Sequence record: NC_028894.1
Strand: one strand, 5' to 3'
From: Escherichia phage vB_EcoM_VR20
DNA length: 64,000 bases
Within the stretch, counting starts at the first letter, position 1. Each line of letters starts with the position of its first letter. Of this stretch, positions 5,951 through 44,047 are shown in pieces. The notes beneath the pieces are model-generated. The model saw only the letters and a list, made by a program, of their open reading frames with translations, was not told where the DNA came from and searched no databases. A program made the position numbers and the translations under genes.

Positions 5951-6000
5951 TCATCAGTAGTTGATGGGATAATGATACACCATTCAAAGGGGCTTGTACA
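5951..6000 (-). promoter_or_regulatory. Class I early-promoter/leader cassette
   Basis: TGTACA, ~17 bp, TGTATCATTATCCCATCAACTA...GAGGAAAA-ATG. Confidence 0.45.
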
Positions 6001-25366: not shown

Positions 25367-25666
25367 TTAGAAAGAACCAGAGCCTTTAATTGTGTTCTGG
25401 CGACCTTTATTTTCTAATTCAGAATGGTCAATTTCATATGCTTGTGCTACGCCAAAGGCCTTTTTAACTTTAGCTAAAGAACCTTTAGATGTAACAATAT
25501 TAAAAGTATTACCTTTAGTAAAATCAACCAAATCCACTTGTACACCTTGTTTACCGAGGCTTGCGACAATAGCATCAACATATTGTTGGTCTAAATTGCC
25601 CTGGACTCCGATTTGAAATGCTTTAGGAGCTTTAGCTTCTGTGATAAATTCTTGATAAGTTTTCAT
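25367..25666 (-). CDS. Internal-protein-like ORF with capsid targeting sequence
   Basis: 99 aa; N-terminus MKTYQEFITE (CTS-like) with I-x-E site. Confidence 0.55.
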   Translation of the reverse strand: MKTYQEFITEAKAPKAFQIGVQGNLDQQYVDAIVASLGKQGVQVDLVDFTKGNTFNIVTSKGSLAKVKKAFGVAQAYEIDHSELENKGRQNTIKGSGSF

Positions 25667-25674
25667 TTATTCTC

Positions 25675-25725
25675 TCCAAGTTGATGGGATAATTATGCAC
25701 TATCCCATCAAAAAGTAAACAGTTA
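25675..25725 (-). promoter_or_regulatory. Class I early-promoter/leader cassette
   Basis: GTTTAC-17bp-TGCATAATTATCCCATCAACTTGGAGAGAA; inverted repeat GATGGGATA..TATCCCATC around -10. Confidence 0.5.
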
Positions 25726-25986
25726 TGCTTTACCGCCAGAAACAATACCAAAGGTCTCAAAGTCCCATTCAATATCGTCAACATCAACTTTCTTACCAGC
25801 AACCACGAATGCGATTTCGCGACGTTTTGCATAGGTGACAATTTCTTTACCATCACCGCCAAAGAAAGAATAACCATTGCGCTTCATGGTGCCAAAGTCT
25901 TCAGCATCACCAGCAAACGCGCGGACTTTAAAGGAACCAGCAGGAGCTTTAGCAGATTCAGTAATAAATTCTTGATAAGTTTTCAT
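25723..25986 (-). CDS. Internal-protein-like ORF with capsid targeting sequence
   Basis: 87 aa; N-terminus MKTYQEFITES. Confidence 0.55.
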   Translation of the reverse strand: MKTYQEFITESAKAPAGSFKVRAFAGDAEDFGTMKRNGYSFFGGDGKEIVTYAKRREIAFVVAGKKVDVDDIEWDFETFGIVSGGKA

Positions 25987-25999
25987 AATGTCTCTTTAA

Positions 26000-26314
26000 T
26001 TAAGCTTTAGGGAAATCGCGCAAAAACGCATCATAAAGTTTATTACCAATACGACGGAATGCTTTTGCTGCATGAACGTTATCCGGGTTTGCAATTTTAA
26101 TCTGCATTACATGACTACCCGCCCATGATTTAGCTTCGTCATAATAACCTTTAATTTCTTTAATAGTCTTGCGTTTGCCGCCAGGACCATCAACAGTAAT
26201 TTTCCACGAACCCGTGCTTGTTTCACTTGGTGGGGTTAATTGTTCAATCCAGACATAACCGCCTTCAACACGTTTTTGGGTGGATTCAGTAATAAATTCT
26301 TGATAAGTTTTCAT
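26000..26314 (-). CDS. Internal-protein-like ORF with capsid targeting sequence
   Basis: Start taken at internal Met giving MKTYQEFITEST...; 104 aa. Confidence 0.5.
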   Translation of the reverse strand: MKTYQEFITESTQKRVEGGYVWIEQLTPPSETSTGSWKITVDGPGGKRKTIKEIKGYYDEAKSWAGSHVMQIKIANPDNVHAAKAFRRIGNKLYDAFLRDFPKA

Positions 26315-37910: not shown

Positions 37911-37987
37911 TGGTCGGGGTGGTGGGATTCTAACCCACAACCTACGGTTTAGAAGACCGTTGCTCTATACAATTGAGCTACACCCCG
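37911..37987 (-). tRNA. tRNA-Arg (anticodon UCU), CCA encoded
   Basis: Manual cloverleaf: acceptor CGGGGTG/CACCCCG, D-stem GCTC/GAGC, anticodon stem ACGGT/ACCGT, loop CTTCTAA, T-arm GTGGG-TTAGAAT-CCCAC. Confidence 0.8.
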
Positions 37988-37989
37988 AG

Positions 37990-38062
37990 TGGCCCCATCC
38001 GGACTTGAACCGGAAACCTGCCAGTTATGAGCCGGATGCTCTAACCAATTGAGCTACAGGGC
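37990..38062 (-). tRNA. tRNA with CAU anticodon (Met or Ile)
   Basis: Manual cloverleaf: acceptor GGCCCTG/TGGGGCC, D-arm GCTC-AATTGGTTA-GAGC, loop CTCATAA, T-arm TCCGG-TTCAAGT-CCGGA; one mismatch in anticodon stem. Confidence 0.7.
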
Positions 38063-38068
38063 CTAAAA

Positions 38069-39320: not shown

Positions 39321-39506
39321 TTACTCACCTTTAGACATTTTATCCATAACGAAAGAGATTGAACCAATTAAGAATGCAACTACTAAAGAGATTATATTCT
39401 CAGAAGTTGAAAGCATATTCAACATAAAGCCAGCGAACATGCTAAAACCAAAAGCGGTAACAGCAACAAAGGCAGTAACATTTCTAATTAATTCGCAACG
39501 TTTCAT
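39321..39506 (-). CDS. Small membrane protein
   Basis: 61 aa; two hydrophobic segments; class I promoter cassette upstream. Confidence 0.4.
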   Translation of the reverse strand: MKRCELIRNVTAFVAVTAFGFSMFAGFMLNMLSTSENIISLVVAFLIGSISFVMDKMSKGE

Positions 39507-39514
39507 TTTATTCT

Positions 39515-39570
39515 CCTCATTAGTTGATGGGATAATTATACACTATCCCATATCTAAAAGTACACTTATT
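39515..39570 (-). promoter_or_regulatory. Class I early-promoter/leader cassette
   Basis: GTGTAC-~18bp-TGTATAATTATCCCATCAACTAATGAGGAGAA; IR TGGGATAG..TATCCCA. Confidence 0.5.
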
Positions 39571-39799
39571 TTTTACGGAAAATTGATTTATACTGTTTAG
39601 CCCATTTCTCGATAACTTCTGCTGGACCCTGGATAACAAAATAGTCCCCAAACTCTTCACCGCCGAGCTGACCGTAATTATCTAAGGCGTCGCGGAGAGT
39701 TCCATAAGGCATTTCGCCCATTTTATCTTTCTTGCCGGTGTAAATGAATTGCACTTTAACATCAGCAGTTTCATTAATAAATTCTTGATAAGTTTTCAT
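39566..39799 (-). CDS. Internal-protein-like ORF with capsid targeting sequence
   Basis: 77 aa; MKTYQEFINETADV. Confidence 0.55.
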   Translation of the reverse strand: MKTYQEFINETADVKVQFIYTGKKDKMGEMPYGTLRDALDNYGQLGGEEFGDYFVIQGPAEVIEKWAKQYKSIFRKK

Positions 39800-39804
39800 G
39801 TTGT

Positions 39805-39860
39805 CTCCAGTAGTTGATGGGATAATTATACTGCAGTTATCCCATCACGTACACTAAATT
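39805..39860 (-). promoter_or_regulatory. Class I early-promoter/leader cassette
   Basis: GTGTAC...GATGGGATAACTGCAGTATAATTATCCCATCAACTACTGGAGACAAC-ATG. Confidence 0.5.
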
Positions 39861-40132
39861 TTTGTATATTGTCCAGCTTTAACTTTTTTCAGTTCACGAG
39901 GGCTTACCGCGTAAGTGAATGGAGCATTCCAGGAAGAACTGACTTTGTAACCTTTAGTCAACATCATTGCTGAAACTTTCTTGTTATCAGGACCGTTTTC
40001 GCCTTTAACAAGAAACAACTCAAATGCGCCACCATCAACCGGTTTGGCCTTAACCATCAGATGTCCTTTCAGGTCTTCCAGCATATCCGGGTGACTAATT
40101 GATTCGTTAATAAATTCTTGATAAGTTTTCAT
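39854..40132 (-). CDS. Internal-protein-like ORF with capsid targeting sequence
   Basis: 92 aa; MKTYQEFINESISHPDMLE. Confidence 0.55.
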   Translation of the reverse strand: MKTYQEFINESISHPDMLEDLKGHLMVKAKPVDGGAFELFLVKGENGPDNKKVSAMMLTKGYKVSSSWNAPFTYAVSPRELKKVKAGQYTKI

Positions 40133-40144
40133 TAGTAGCTCCAG

Positions 40145-40195
40145 TAGTTGATGGGATAATTATACTGCATTTATCCCATCGTGTACATTACATTT
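40145..40195 (-). promoter_or_regulatory. Class I early-promoter/leader cassette
   Basis: TGTACA...GATGGGATAAATGCAGTATAATTATCCCATCAACTACTGGAG. Confidence 0.5.
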
Positions 40196-40487
40196 TTGAA
40201 CCGCGAATCACGCCATAAGCTGCGAAGTCGTCAGTGATGTTCTTAGGGGTGTTTTTACCAGTTTCAATATATGCGATGCTGGATTTCTGACCAAATGAGG
40301 TAATTTTATTATAGTTAGAGTCAAGGAAAGTATAACCATTTTTACGCAGCTGGTCAAAGTCTTCAGCGTCGCCTTTACCTTTGAAGTCAACCCATTTGTA
40401 TGTGTTTTTCTTCTGAAGGCCCAGAGGCCAGGTTTTTGCTTCTGCCAGGTAATTATTTTCTACCAAAAATTCGTGGAGCGTTTGCAT
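40188..40487 (-). CDS. Internal-protein-like ORF with CTS-like N-terminus
   Basis: 99 aa; MQTLHEFLVENNYLAE. Confidence 0.45.
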   Translation of the reverse strand: MQTLHEFLVENNYLAEAKTWPLGLQKKNTYKWVDFKGKGDAEDFDQLRKNGYTFLDSNYNKITSFGQKSSIAYIETGKNTPKNITDDFAAYGVIRGSKM

Positions 40488-40495
40488 TTGAAATC

Positions 40496-40768
40496 CTATT
40501 TTAGATAAATTGCATATTTTTTATAACCAGCTGTCTCATGGCGGAGACCCTTGTCATTGGCAAAACGCTCAATGTTGTTGATTTGGTTCTGGTCAAGTTC
40601 AGAGATGTCAAACGCGAAAAAGTTGCGTTTGTTACCAATTGTTATATGGTCAGTTAAGTCAATGCTATACAAGTGATTGATATTGTCAATCATAGCTTTG
40701 ACTGCTTTACTAATTTTTACTTCTTCATTCAGTTGGGACTCGTTGAAAAGTTCATTAAAAGTTTTCAT
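40496..40768 (-). CDS. Internal-protein-like ORF with CTS-like N-terminus
   Basis: 90 aa; MKTFNELFNESQLNE. Confidence 0.45.
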   Translation of the reverse strand: MKTFNELFNESQLNEEVKISKAVKAMIDNINHLYSIDLTDHITIGNKRNFFAFDISELDQNQINNIERFANDKGLRHETAGYKKYAIYLK

Positions 40769-40776
40769 AAGAAACC

Positions 40777-41109
40777 TTATTTATACAGTTTAGCTAGTTC
40801 TTTACGTCCGCGAGCAGACATAATGAATTGTTCATCACCAATTTTGAAATAAGCCATACCGCCGTCAACAGCGATGCCAATTTCTTTAGTACCTTCTTTG
40901 CCTTTCCACTTACCACCAGATTTCAGGACAGCTTCAACTGCAGCTTTGGAATATTTGGACGTTTGAAAACGTTCATTACCAATCTGAAAGAAAACACCAT
41001 CTGCATTTTTGGATAAACCAAATTTCAGAGAGCCTTCACTATCATCAATTGATTTGGTCTCATTGATGGCGGATTCGGCTAAAAACTCGTTGTAAGTTTT
41101 GATGTTCAT
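40777..41109 (-). CDS. Internal-protein-like ORF with CTS-like N-terminus (ipI position)
   Basis: 110 aa; MNIKTYNEFLAESAINE; directly upstream of 57B. Confidence 0.5.
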   Translation of the reverse strand: MNIKTYNEFLAESAINETKSIDDSEGSLKFGLSKNADGVFFQIGNERFQTSKYSKAAVEAVLKSGGKWKGKEGTKEIGIAVDGGMAYFKIGDEQFIMSARGRKELAKLYK

Positions 41110-41165
41110 TTTAACTCCGTTTGTTCATTGGTGTAGGAACATAATACTGCACCTACACTCATTTG
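41110..41165 (-). promoter_or_regulatory. Promoter-like element with inverted repeat around -10
   Basis: TGTACA...GTGTAGGtgcagtattatgttCCTACAC upstream of the ipI-position gene. Confidence 0.4.
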
Positions 41166-41169
41166 TACA

Positions 41170-41854
<685 letters not shown>

Positions 41855-41855
<1 letters not shown>

Positions 41856-42532
41856 TATAGTACCTTATTAATTTTATCAAAAAGTTCATCGAGTGTGCCA
41901 TCGTTTTTAATAACAATGTCACTAGCTAGTGGTGGAAGTCCAGCTTCCGTAATGTGTGTATCAGTAGAATGATTTGCTTCATCGCGTTCTACAAAGATTA
42001 TTGTAGCACCCATCGCCCGAAGCGAATCAAGTTCGTTCTTTTGGCGAACATCCGGGACAACGTAATATTTATATCCAGAATAGAGGTTGTCAAGATAGTC
42101 GCATGCAAAAGTTTTAATCCAAAACATGCTGTCGAACTCTGTACAAACGATGTCAGTTCCAAGGGTCTGCATGAAACGTCTAACTGTCCAGGGCTCAACA
42201 TTATTTAGTGTGTGAAATTCAATAATTTTACGAACCATATCTGGATTCGGAAGGTCAAGATTGTATTGTTGTTTCAACCATTCAAGAGCATCAACCAGAA
42301 GAATATAAGCTTCGGTGTTGTTCATTATCAAGGTTTTTTCACGGTCATAACCTTGTCCATCAAAATTTTCCAGGGTCAAATTGTGTGGTAGGTCTTGACG
42401 AATCCACGCTTTATAAAGCGCTTCTTTAATCGGACCCGCAAGCTGCCACTTTGTTCCGTTTTGACTAATAACATAATCAGCAGTCGTATCTTTACCACTG
42501 CGTTTTTTACCCACAATCGCAATTAATTTCAT
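41855..42532 (-). CDS. 1: Deoxynucleoside monophosphate kinase gp1
   Basis: 225 aa; P-loop IAIVGKKRSGKDTTADYV. Confidence 0.8.
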
Positions 42533-43128
42533 ACGTTTCTCATAGATGGATGCATTGACTTAGACCTGATTTCCTGTTGCATTGCTGCATTACTATCAAT
42601 CTGTGGTCTACCTTCTATTATTATACCATCAATTTCTACAGCAAAAGACTTAAAGTTAAAAGTTGCTGTTGCATTGATAGCCGGGTCAGAATCTTCTTTA
42701 TATGAATACTGAATCTCTGACAGGTCGGACGGCCATGCTCCATAGTAATGGATTGACATGACAATTTTGTCCTTGTTGTTATCTAAGATATGAAGCGTGA
42801 CCGCTTCGGGACGACCCTTTGGATGCCATGCTTTTGATTCGTGTGTGATGTAGTTGTTGAGCGAGAGCATCCATTTATAGATATCAAGCCATGCTCTTAG
42901 GTCTTTGTCACACAGAAAGTTAACAATCAGCGGGTCGAATTCTATTGTACTACCAGGAAGACTGGAGCGATTTATACCTTGTGTCCCCCCGGGGACATCC
43001 GTCACAGGAATGTGAACTCCTGGGAGGGTAACATCTTGAACGTTGAGTTTAAAGGTCTGTGTGAGGTTTGAATCGCTTACCTCTAATATAAAGTTAGTCG
43101 TGTTAGTTTGATTATATAAACCTGACAT
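42529..43128 (-). CDS. 3: Tail completion / sheath stabiliser protein gp3
   Basis: 199 aa from internal Met MSGLYNQ; synteny 1-3-2-4. Confidence 0.65.
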   Translation of the reverse strand: MSGLYNQTNTTNFILEVSDSNLTQTFKLNVQDVTLPGVHIPVTDVPGGTQGINRSSLPGSTIEFDPLIVNFLCDKDLRAWLDIYKWMLSLNNYITHESKAWHPKGRPEAVTLHILDNNKDKIVMSIHYYGAWPSDLSEIQYSYKEDSDPAINATATFNFKSFAVEIDGIIIEGRPQIDSNAAMQQEIRSKSMHPSMRNV

Positions 43129-43213
43129 AGTGCACCTTGTTTGCTTTAAAACAATCAGTGTTATAATGGTTCTAGACCTTTTGTCCTTACCAATAACACT
43201 GACCGATAATAGA

Positions 43214-44047
43214 TTATGAATTTCTCCATACTTTCTGAGAAGAGAATCTTTTGCCTTTCGACATAAATTGTTGCAACGGAAGCATAACAACATTTGCCCA
43301 GTCGCTGGGCTTGATTTCAGTAATAGTACCTTTTATATTGCCAGGTATATATGCTTTAATCATCTGGTCAGCCCCTTTAAATCCCTTCACCTTTGACCAA
43401 TCAATTTTCAGATGAGTCTTGTTCGTAATCGTAGGAGTATTAGCATATTGCTTAAGAAGTTCCTCAAGGAACTCTTGACGCGCCTTCGGTGGAATATAGT
43501 GCAAGTTCAAACCATACATCAAATTGTGCTTACCTAGCCCAAGATAAATGATTAACGGATATTTGTCCCAGTACGGAAGAGTATCCTTATGCTTTGCATC
43601 ATAGATATAAGCATAAATCTTACCTGGTTGAGGTTTAGCCGTTACGTGACCGCGAACTGATTTCTTAATTGTCTCGGCGAACCATCTGGCAGATTTGGTG
43701 TTGCTTGCTGCACCTTCGTTAGCAATCTTATCTCTTATGCTCTTCCTAAAGCTATTCACCATTATCAGCTGGCGTTCAGCCTTCGTAAGTTTACCAGCAG
43801 GTTTCTTTTTGAGCTTGGATACTTTATAAGCAGTCTGAATTCTCGAATGGTATCTTGACATGCTTTTGGTAAAGGTCGAATAGTTGATTCCTTTCTCTTC
43901 AGCAAACTTCTTCGAGGTCATTCCCTTTTCTTTTGCTGTATAAAATTCAACCCCTATCTCAACCCATTGTTGTTCGGATTTACTGGGTTTCGGACCTGGT
44001 TTATCTGCAGATTCATTGATAAATGTAAAAATACTCATCCTTTCCAT
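43214..44047 (-). CDS. 2: DNA end protector protein gp2
   Basis: 277 aa basic protein; synteny and size as T4 gp2. Confidence 0.7.

What the first reader, a model, noticed from the sequence alone, without database searches (positions are those of the whole stretch)
39566..41109. Cluster B: five tandem CTS-tagged ORFs at the ipI position upstream of 57B
Five consecutive ORFs (77-110 aa) start MKTYQEFINE, MKTYQEFINES, MQTLHEFLVE, MKTFNELFNE and MNIKTYNEFLAE, each with L/I-x-E shortly after; bodies are unrelated. T4 has a single ipI gene here, whose product inhibits a type IV restriction enzyme. An expanded, diversified array at this hypervariable site suggests an arsenal of injected proteins. 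Two copies have near-identical class I promoter cassettes.
Basis: partly seen in the sequence, partly recalled or inferred. Interest (0 to 1): 0.8.

Follow-up and report, generated by a model that had tools for sequence, protein, structure and literature searches.

The report
Variable array of injected phage proteins
Five small genes next to the anti-CBASS gene 57B of a T4-like coliphage each begin with the T4 capsid-packaging tag, and they form the well-known variable "internal protein" locus whose products are injected with the DNA to disarm host restriction; this is an ordinary though well-stocked example, and two of the five have never been labelled as such.

Summary
Five minus-strand ORFs (110, 90, 99, 92 and 77 aa) fill window 39566-41109 between 57B/Acb1 and tRNA.4. 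All start with a T4-type capsid targeting sequence (CTS), and their bodies are mutually unrelated.

The window is a Gaprivervirus (98% identical to VR7). VR7 already annotates two of the ORFs as Ip6 and Ip9.

The interpretation matches established knowledge:
- The polymorphic ip locus was described by Repoila et al. in 1994.
- T4 Ip1-3 each block a different GmrSD type IV enzyme (Silas 2025).

What I add:
- Ip6 here is 78% identical to Bas37_0260. A knockout of that gene made phage Bas37 sensitive to McrBC.
- In 27 related loci I found 49 CTS ORFs in 12 body families, 0-5 per locus. One metagenomic relative has six.
- The 92-aa ORF exists only in Gaprivervirus. It is a cassette flanked by 96-nt repeats (promoter stem-loop plus CTS codons). 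VR25 lacks it and carries a chimeric junction.
- The 110-aa ORF models as a Whirly/PUR-like tandem ββββα fold.
- The T4 ip genes use the same stem-loop promoter design.

Packaging, cleavage and injection are inferred, not shown. Verdict: new members of a known kind, modest interest.

The parts
40777..41109 (-). B5: 110-aa CTS ORF (VR7ORF156c family, phrog_3966). First gene of a three-gene unit. The CTS is shifted by two residues (MN-IKTYNEFLAE|S).
40496..40768 (-). B4: 90-aa Ip9 family internal protein. CTS is MKTFNELFNE, with a second site L-N-E at 13-15.
   Evidence: phrog_7673 'internal head protein', E 3e-56. VR7 annotates it as ip9. Present in 10 of 27 loci.
40188..40487 (-). B3: 99-aa CTS ORF (VR7ORF154c; Ip7-like phrog_2667). 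Paralogue of window 25723-25986.
   Evidence: AF2 model has pLDDT 69, with no specific fold match.
39854..40132 (-). B2: 92-aa CTS ORF (VR7ORF153c, phrog_15565). Restricted to Gaprivervirus and never annotated as an internal protein.
   Evidence: One 90% cluster among 5.8 billion proteins. 16 phage records, all at least 97.8% identical and all 'hypothetical'. Absent from VR25 with a chimeric cassette at the junction.
39566..39799 (-). B1: 77-aa Ip6. Orthologue of Bas37_0260, an experimentally supported anti-McrBC factor.
   Evidence: phrog_8111, E 2.5e-51. VR7 annotates it as ip6. 78% identical over all 77 aa to Bas37_0260. Function from bioRxiv 10.1101/2025.11.20.689424.
41110..41169 (-). Early-promoter and stem-loop cassette in front of B5. 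-35 TGTACA, -10 TATTAT lying in the loop of GTGTAGG/CCTACAC, then SD GGAG.
   Evidence: folding -16.3 kcal/mol, z -2.4.
40133..40198 (-). Promoter and stem-loop cassette in front of B2 (GATGGGATAA...TTATCCCATC with TATAAT in the loop). Left copy of the direct repeat.
   Evidence: (D2).
39800..39864 (-). Promoter and stem-loop cassette in front of B1. Right copy of the direct repeat, 92% identical to the left copy.
   Evidence: D2, I5; -18.1 kcal/mol, z -3.7; 0 of 200 shuffles fold as well.
39507..39565 (-). Third, more diverged copy of the same cassette, in front of tRNA.4.
   Evidence: (D3).
40103..40198 (-). The 96-nt recombination repeat (cassette, SD and first 10 CTS codons). Its partner is at 39770-39864, 90% identical. 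Together they flank the B2 module.
   Evidence: VR25's single copy is left-type at its 5' end and right-type at its 3' end, with the crossover inside an identical 31-nt stretch.
40778..40785 (-). The only exact T4 late-promoter consensus (TATAAATA) in the locus. It overlaps the B5 stop codon, 9 nt before the B4 start.
41170..41625 (-). Flanking gene 57B, the anti-CBASS phosphodiesterase Acb1.
   Evidence: phrog_755. PF23474:Acb1 on identical products. 57B/Acb1 named in the preprint.
39321..39506 (-). Flanking gene tRNA.4 (61 aa). It is the conserved downstream anchor of the locus.
   Evidence: PF26870 Phage_T4_Y07D.

Best explanation
This is the ipI-position hyperplastic locus of a VR7-like T4-type phage (Gaprivervirus). 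It encodes five different capsid-targeted internal proteins (Ips).

Proposed mechanism:
1. Each protein is made with an N-terminal capsid targeting sequence of 10-12 residues (consensus MKTYQEFI-x-E). This peptide binds the gp22/gp67/gp68 scaffolding core of the prohead.
2. The gp21 prohead protease cuts after the Glu of L/I-x-E. This frees mature proteins of 67-98 residues that stay in the head with the DNA.
3. The proteins are ejected into the next host together with the DNA, before any phage gene is expressed.
4. Each then neutralises one pre-existing host defence. For B1/Ip6 the likely target is McrBC-type type IV restriction. For the other four the target is unknown.

How the array diversifies: homologous recombination between repeated units moves whole gene modules in and out. 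Each repeated unit is an early-promoter stem-loop cassette (PeSL-like) plus the CTS-coding 5' end.

Shown here:
- the ORFs and the conserved motif;
- protein-level selection on the motif;
- synteny with T4 ipI;
- presence/absence variation among relatives;
- the recombination junction;
- orthology of B1 to Bas37_0260;
- presence of gp21/22/67/68 in the 98%-identical relative VR7.

Inferred: packaging, cleavage, injection and the anti-defence role of B2-B5.
For: Motif. All five N-termini match the T4 IPII/IPIII tag MKTYQEFIAE. They keep the residues that genetics showed matter: positions 4 and 7 for targeting, 8 and 10 for processing, and L/I-X-E for gp21 (PMC9026906).

Selection on the peptide. 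Across 49 CTS ORFs from 27 loci the first 10 residues are 69% identical on average, while the bodies fall into 12 unrelated families. Invariant residues are encoded by several synonymous codons, for example four for Thr3 and six for Ser11. Selection therefore acts on the peptide and not on the DNA.

Locus. Nearly every ORF between 57B and tRNA.4 in these loci carries the tag.

Machinery. VR7 encodes gp21, gp22, gp67 and gp68.

Function. B1 is 78% identical to Bas37_0260, whose deletion makes Bas37 sensitive to McrBC. T4 Ip1, Ip2 and Ip3 each inhibit a distinct GmrSD (PMC12373910).

Promoters. T4 ipI, ipII and ipIII and the Bas37 ip genes have the same design, a -35 GTTTAC plus a palindrome spanning the -10. 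Early-type promoters are therefore compatible with packaging.

Shuffling. VR25 lacks B2 and has a chimeric cassette. VR26 swaps B3 and B2 for ip5 exactly from the ATG. Other relatives replace or lose Ip6. This matches the PeSL mechanism (PMC2839356).
Against: - I found no virion proteomics or N-terminal sequencing for any of these five proteins.
- Three tags deviate from the tested IPIII sequence. B3 has Leu4. B4 has Leu7 and F-N-E instead of L/I-x-E. B5 carries two extra N-terminal residues.
- Only B4 has an exact late promoter.
- VR7 lacks gene 42, alpha-gt and beta-gt, and Gaprivervirus is reported to lack known hmC enzymes (PMC8056088). The modified-DNA rationale for type IV restriction inhibitors is therefore unproven for this lineage.
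- B5 models as a nucleic-acid-binding type of fold rather than an obvious enzyme inhibitor.
Confidence: 0.78

Rival explanations
1. The proteins are packaged, but they act mainly as general DNA-associated head contents. They would serve charge neutralisation, help with head assembly, or aid DNA ejection or protection by binding nucleic acid. They would not be specific inhibitors of host defence proteins.
For: - Mature B5, B3 and B2 are basic, pI 9.3-9.6.
- B5 models as a Whirly/PUR-like fold, whose solved members bind ssDNA or RNA.
- The older literature noted about 300 copies per head of basic IPs, and a head-assembly defect of IPIII mutants (PMC9026906).
Against: - Such a generic role does not predict 12 unrelated body families with presence/absence variation between near-identical phages.
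- B4 and B1 are near neutral.
- All four Ips with a known function are specific type IV restriction inhibitors.
Confidence: 0.12
2. The shared N-terminus is a by-product of the recombination mechanism. The first 30 nt of each gene would simply belong to the mobile promoter cassette, and the proteins would be ordinary early cytoplasmic accessory proteins that are not packaged.
For: - The repeat that mediates gain or loss of B2 does include the first 10 codons.
- The promoters are of the early type, and the same cassette precedes non-Ip genes elsewhere in the window.
Against: - The other genes behind the same cassette (for example at 5960, 19637, 26797, and tRNA.4 at 39523) do not start with the tag.
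- CTS codons vary synonymously while the peptide is conserved.
- B4 and B3 have the tag without any cassette in front of them.
- The identical tag is sufficient for packaging in T4 (PMC9026906).
Confidence: 0.04
3. The proteins are injected anti-defence factors. However, because this lineage lacks the hmC/glucosyl pathway, most of them would target defences other than type IV (modification-dependent) restriction.
For: - VR7 has no gene 42, a-gt or b-gt (PMC8056088).
- None of the eight CTS bodies in the window is homologous to T4 Ip1-3.
- The array sits beside Acb1, an anti-CBASS gene.
Against: - The one member with a functional homologue (Ip6) points to McrBC, a type IV enzyme.
- VR7 keeps dCTPase gp56, and Gaprivervirus keeps Alc and DenB homologues (PMC8056088). 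This suggests that cytosine is replaced by something.
- Ip6 and Ip9 families are shared with glucosyl-hmC Tequatroviruses.
Confidence: 0.3

Closest known systems
[quoted passage not shown] 1994; Silas et al. 2025, PMC12373910)
   Same: - Same genomic position as T4 ipI, between 57B and tRNA.4.
- Same N-terminal capsid targeting sequence and gp21 cleavage motif.
- Same small size.
- Same promoter and stem-loop design.
- Same pattern of unrelated bodies behind a shared tag.
   Different: None of the five bodies is homologous to IPI, IPII or IPIII. There are five genes here instead of one. The host phage lineage lacks the glucosyl-hmC pathway that gives the T4 inhibitors their rationale.
Bas37_0260 of phage KarlGJung, a CTS-bearing anti-McrBC factor at the ipI locus (bioRxiv 10.1101/2025.11.20.689424)
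   Same: B1/Ip6 is 78% identical over the full 77 residues. It sits at the same place, immediately before tRNA.4.
   Different: It comes from a different genus, and 22% of residues differ. Activity against McrBC has not been tested for the Gaprivervirus protein.
PeSL (promoter-early stem-loop) mobile regulatory cassettes of T4-type phages (Arbiol et al. 2010, PMC2839356; Comeau et al. 2014, PMC4122927)
   Same: - A sigma70-like promoter with a stem-loop overlapping the -10, followed by SD and ATG.
- Dispersed copies in variable regions.
- A crossover inside the cassette explains gain or loss of one ORF.
   Different: The stem sequence (GATGGGATAA/TTATCCCATC) is specific to this lineage. The recombining repeat here also includes the CTS codons. 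Promoter and terminator activity were not tested here.
Whirly / PUR / MRP1-MRP2 fold (tandem bbbb-alpha repeats that bind single-stranded nucleic acids)
   Different: Sequence identity is only 8-13%, with no Pfam hit. The repeats are shorter than in solved members. Model confidence is moderate (pLDDT 76). SsgA, which does not bind nucleic acid, scores equally well.

Membership tests
T4-type capsid-targeted internal proteins (Ip) | N-terminal propeptide of 10-19 residues resembling MKTYQEFIAE, with the targeting residues at positions 4 (Tyr) and 7 (Phe) | tested here: met
   B1 and B2 have Y4/F7. B5 has Y and F in register after a 2-residue extension. B3 has L4/F7 and B4 has F4/L7, both conservative variants. 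Rules are from PMC9026906.
T4-type capsid-targeted internal proteins (Ip) | gp21 cleavage motif L/I-X-E ending the propeptide | tested here: met
   I-N-E (B1, B2), L-V-E (B3) and L-A-E (B5) at the expected place. B4 has F-N-E there and L-N-E at 13-15.
T4-type capsid-targeted internal proteins (Ip) | Encoded at one of the two ip loci of T4-like genomes | tested here: met
   Lies between 57B and tRNA.4, exactly where T4 has ipI.
T4-type capsid-targeted internal proteins (Ip) | The phage has the prohead protease gp21 and core proteins gp22/67/68 that read the tag | tested here: inconclusive
   These genes lie outside the 64-kb window. They are present in VR7, which is 98% identical across the locus.
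T4-type capsid-targeted internal proteins (Ip) | The processed protein is physically present in the virion and ejected into the host | not testable with these tools
   No proteomic data were found in the searched literature.
T4 IPI (GmrSD-CT596 inhibitor) family | Sequence homology to T4 IPI (phrog_4363) | tested here: not met
   T4 IPI falls in phrog_4363, and none of the five does. BLAST of the bodies gives E > 3. No PDB sequence hits were found for the two ORFs searched, B3 and B5.
Ip6 / Bas37_0260 anti-McrBC family | Full-length homology to Bas37_0260 and the same locus position | tested here: met
   B1: 60 of 77 residues identical, no gaps, E 2e-46. Both genes directly precede tRNA.4.
Ip6 / Bas37_0260 anti-McrBC family | Protects the phage against McrBC | not testable with these tools
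   Shown only for Bas37, by knockout.
PeSL regulatory cassettes | Intergenic unit with a sigma70-like -35/-10, a stem-loop between the boxes or over the -10, then SD and start codon | tested here: met
   Promoter scan hits at 40187-40159 and 41169-41141. Stems of 10-11 bp with TATAAT in the loop, z -2.3 to -3.7.
PeSL regulatory cassettes | Repeated through variable regions, with recombination between copies adding or removing ORFs | tested here: met
   Nine minus-strand copies of TATAATTATCCCATCAAC within 3 mismatches, against 0.17 expected. Chimeric single copy in VR25 where B2 is missing.
PeSL regulatory cassettes | Measured promoter and terminator activity | not testable with these tools
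   This needs reporter assays.
Whirly/PUR-like fold (B5 only) | Two bbbb-alpha repeats forming the Whirly/PUR domain | tested here: inconclusive
Whirly/PUR-like fold (B5 only) | Binds single-stranded DNA or RNA | not testable with these tools
   This needs EMSA or similar.

The most novel reading that the evidence does not exclude
The Gaprivervirus lineage has no hmC or glucosylation genes, yet it keeps eight capsid-targeted proteins. This points to two things not yet described. (a) Its DNA may carry an unidentified cytosine modification that McrBC-like enzymes can see, because it retains an orthologue of the anti-McrBC factor (Ip6). (b) Some of its injected proteins may work in a new way. In particular the B5 family may be an injected Whirly/PUR-like protein that binds single-stranded nucleic acid, rather than an enzyme inhibitor. 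The lineage-restricted B2 cassette may be aimed at a defence not yet linked to any Ip.
Probability: 0.2. Interest if true: 0.6.

Novelty: new member of a known kind. Interest (0 to 1): 0.3.

Why it matters
Injected internal proteins act before any phage gene is expressed. They therefore set the host range of T4-like phages, including those used for therapy.

Only four Ip families have a known target: T4 Ip1-3 against GmrSD variants, and Bas37_0260 against McrBC. This locus gives a compact panel to test. It holds one likely McrBC inhibitor (Ip6), one widespread family (Ip9), and three families that databases mostly call hypothetical.

The locus also gives a clean natural example of how promoter-plus-tag repeats move such genes as cassettes. 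If the phage really lacks hmC, the targets of these proteins could extend the known scope of injected anti-defence proteins.

Tried and rejected
- Pfam, NCBIfam, PADLOC and Rfam scans of the five ORFs and the locus gave nothing above threshold.
- PDB sequence searches for B3 and B5 gave nothing.
- I tested whether B5 is related to the Ip10-like ORF at 26000-26314, because both hit phrog_3966. A profile comparison aligns only the 11-residue tag, so the shared PHROG is probably driven by the tag.
- I considered an IPI homologue in the window and rejected it.
- The exhaustive HMM search for remote relatives of B2 failed. 'B2 has no distant relatives' therefore rests on the word-indexed search and tblastn only.
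- Repoila et al. 1994 (PMC395341) is not held in the library. It is cited only through papers that cite it.
- Literature searches for Gaprivervirus DNA modification or virion proteomics found nothing specific.
- The VR7 annotation of a 121-aa ORF156c was rejected. Its start lies in the -10 box, and that frame is closed by TGA in the window.
Full report
**What is there**

Window 39566-41109 holds five consecutive minus-strand ORFs. In transcription order I call them B5 to B1:
- B5: 40777-41109, 110 aa.
- B4: 40496-40768, 90 aa.
- B3: 40188-40487, 99 aa.
- B2: 39854-40132, 92 aa.
- B1: 39566-39799, 77 aa.

They lie between 57B (41170-41625) and tRNA.4 (39321-39506). T4 has its single ipI gene in that same interval. 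They are downstream of 57B in the direction of transcription. tRNA-Arg and tRNA-Met follow at 37911-38063.

The locus is 98.1% identical to coliphage vB_EcoM-VR7 (Gaprivervirus). It is 100% identical over 1,881 nt to IMG/VR contig UViG_2706795408. VR7's depositors named B1 'Ip6' and B4 'Ip9' and left the other three as hypothetical. RefSeq later relabelled B3 'internal head protein'.

**The tag**

T4 IPII and IPIII begin MKTYQEFIAE, and IPI begins MKTFKEFTSTTTPVSTITE. The five ORFs begin:
- B1 and B2: MKTYQEFINE.
- B3: MQTLHEFLVE.
- B4: MKTFNELFNE.
- B5: MN-IKTYNEFLAE.

A regular expression for this motif, run over all six frames of the 64-kb window, finds only these ORFs and three more at 25367-26314.

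Published genetics on IPIII show several rules (PMC9026906). The first ten residues suffice for encapsidation. Residues 4 and 7 matter for targeting, and residues 8 and 10 for processing. gp21 cuts after L/I-X-E.

B1 and B2 meet every rule. B5 meets them with a two-residue shift. B3 (Leu4) and B4 (Leu7; F-N-E at 8-10, L-N-E at 13-15) are conservative variants.

**Is the conservation functional?**

I fetched 28 loci around close 57B relatives from IMG/VR. In 27 loci, counting the window's own and T4's, the 57B-tRNA.4 interval holds 49 tagged ORFs, 0 to 5 per locus. Almost nothing else is encoded there.

The first ten residues are 69% identical on average. The bodies split into 12 families with no detectable similarity between families. 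At invariant residues the codons vary synonymously: four codons for Thr3, two each for Tyr4, Glu6, Phe7 and Glu10, and six for Ser11. The peptide is therefore under selection, not the DNA.

Within the window, bodies with the tag removed show no significant pairwise similarity among the five (best E 0.022). The one related pair involves the other cluster: B3 and the ORF at 25723-25986 (E 6e-13).

**What they do**

None of the eight tagged bodies in the window is related to T4 IPI, IPII or IPIII. Those three each inhibit a different GmrSD type IV restriction enzyme (PMC12373910).

B1/Ip6 is 78% identical over its full length to Bas37_0260 of phage KarlGJung, and it sits at the same position. A 2025 preprint showed that deleting that gene makes Bas37 specifically sensitive to McrBC, and noted its packaging tag. 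B1 is therefore most likely an injected McrBC inhibitor.

For the other four I can only offer descriptions:
- B4 is the widespread Ip9 family, found in 10 of 27 loci.
- B3 belongs with the Ip7-like proteins (phrog_2667). Its model is weak and matches no specific fold.
- B5 belongs to a family found in 54 phage records from Escherichia, Citrobacter, Serratia, Edwardsiella, Yersinia and other hosts. It lies next to 57B in some and next to the endolysin in others, and is almost always labelled hypothetical.
- B2 is confined to VR7/SP18-like phages: one protein cluster in 5.8 billion, and 16 phage records all at least 97.8% identical.

The gp21 protease and the gp22/67/68 core proteins needed to read the tag lie outside the window. 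VR7 has them.

**Expression and shuffling**

B5, B4 and B3 form one unit with 8-nt spacers. B2 and B1 each have their own cassette.

The cassettes have a -35-like TGTACA and a 10-11-bp stem whose loop carries the -10 (TATAAT or TATTAT), followed by GGAG and ATG. The same motif, TATAATTATCCCATCAAC, occurs nine times on the minus strand of the window, against 0.17 expected.

T4 ipI, ipII and ipIII and the Bas37 ip genes have the same design with different stem sequences. Early-type promoters are therefore normal for proteins known to be packaged. The only exact late promoter (TATAAATA) sits just before B4.

These cassettes fit the published definition of PeSLs (PMC2839356; PMC4122927).

The cassettes in front of B2 and B1, together with the first ten codons, form a 96-nt direct repeat (90% identical) flanking the B2 module. 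Relatives differ as follows:
- VR25 lacks B2. Its single cassette is left-type at the 5' end and right-type at the 3' end, with the crossover inside an identical 31-nt stretch.
- VR26 replaces B3 and B2 with ip5, starting exactly at the ATG.
- Other relatives lose Ip6 or replace it with an 84-aa tagged ORF.
- One metagenomic contig has six tagged ORFs.

The window's array is therefore large but not exceptional.

**Caveat on the target**

VR7 has no gene 42, alpha-gt or beta-gt at the syntenic sites, although it keeps dCTPase gp56. A comparative study also found no known hmC enzymes in Gaprivervirus, yet did find DenA, DenB, Alc and dCTPase homologues (PMC8056088).

The DNA modification of this lineage is therefore unknown. 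It follows that the relevance of modification-dependent restriction is also unknown. The retained Ip6 orthologue argues that some McrBC-visible modification exists, but this is inference.

**Verdict**

The phenomenon, however, has been known since 1994 and was functionally extended in 2025.

The new elements are modest:
- two to three unlabelled Ip families (B2, B5, and partly B3);
- a functional assignment for Ip6 by homology;
- a fold lead for B5;
- a clean recombination junction.

Packaging, cleavage and injection remain to be shown for these proteins.

Noticed in passing
window 25367-26314 (minus strand): A second cluster of three tagged ORFs: 104 aa Ip10-like, 87 aa paralogue of B3, and 99 aa Ip7-like. 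All start MKTYQEFITE. In VR7 they lie between denV and vs.8, near the T4 ipII/ipIII position. The phage therefore encodes at least eight putative internal proteins.
   Followed up: partly
window 5960, 19637, 23551, 25680, 26797, 30793, 35753, 39523, 39813, 40147 (minus strand): A dispersed early-promoter cassette: (G/T)TGTACA, then N17, then TAnnAT-TATCCCATCAAC-TACTGAGGAG, then ATG. Several copies carry a stem-loop in or over the spacer. The motif occurs 9 times against 0.17 expected. It looks like this lineage's version of PeSLs.
   Followed up: partly
L033 (VR7 1-50000), sites uvsX-imm and 47-55: VR7 has no gene 42 (dCMP hydroxymethylase), no beta-gt and no alpha-gt, yet keeps dCTPase gp56. 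A cytidine/dCMP-deaminase-like ORF (VR7ORF147c) lies near the ip locus. The DNA modification of Gaprivervirus appears to be unknown.
   Followed up: partly
L001 3977-4342 (VR7ORF156c) versus window 41110-41150: VR7's annotated 121-aa start for the B5 homologue lies inside the -10 box of the promoter. In the window that upstream frame is closed by a TGA. The extension hides the packaging tag, which probably explains why the gene was never called an internal protein.
   Followed up: yes
window 41170-41625: 57B is the anti-CBASS nuclease Acb1 (PF23474). The ip array therefore sits directly beside another counter-defence gene and forms a small anti-defence island.
   Followed up: partly
L041 2501-3389 (Logan ERR2241904 contig): A related phage has six tagged ORFs in this locus (110-90-99-92-80-84 aa). 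The 84-aa ORF (MKTYQQFINESADAKVEFAYVG...) looks like a diverged Ip6. Other relatives carry only four.
   Followed up: partly
window 39578-39601 and 40771-40794: The 3' ends of B1 and B5 share GCTAAAC(A/T)GTATAAAT(C/A). This is a late-promoter-like TATAAAT at the downstream edge of two otherwise unrelated genes, and is possibly a module boundary.
   Followed up: no
H51 (PQ341120.1, phage EAWsc9): One GenBank record labels the B5 homologue 'profilin'. This is presumably a structure-based automatic name. It does not agree with the Whirly/PUR-like matches found here.
   Followed up: no
window 42529-44047 versus L001 5735-7406: VR7 carries a MobB-like homing endonuclease gene between genes 3 and 2. 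In the window the ORFs at these positions abut or overlap with no room for it, so the endonuclease seems to be absent.
   Followed up: no
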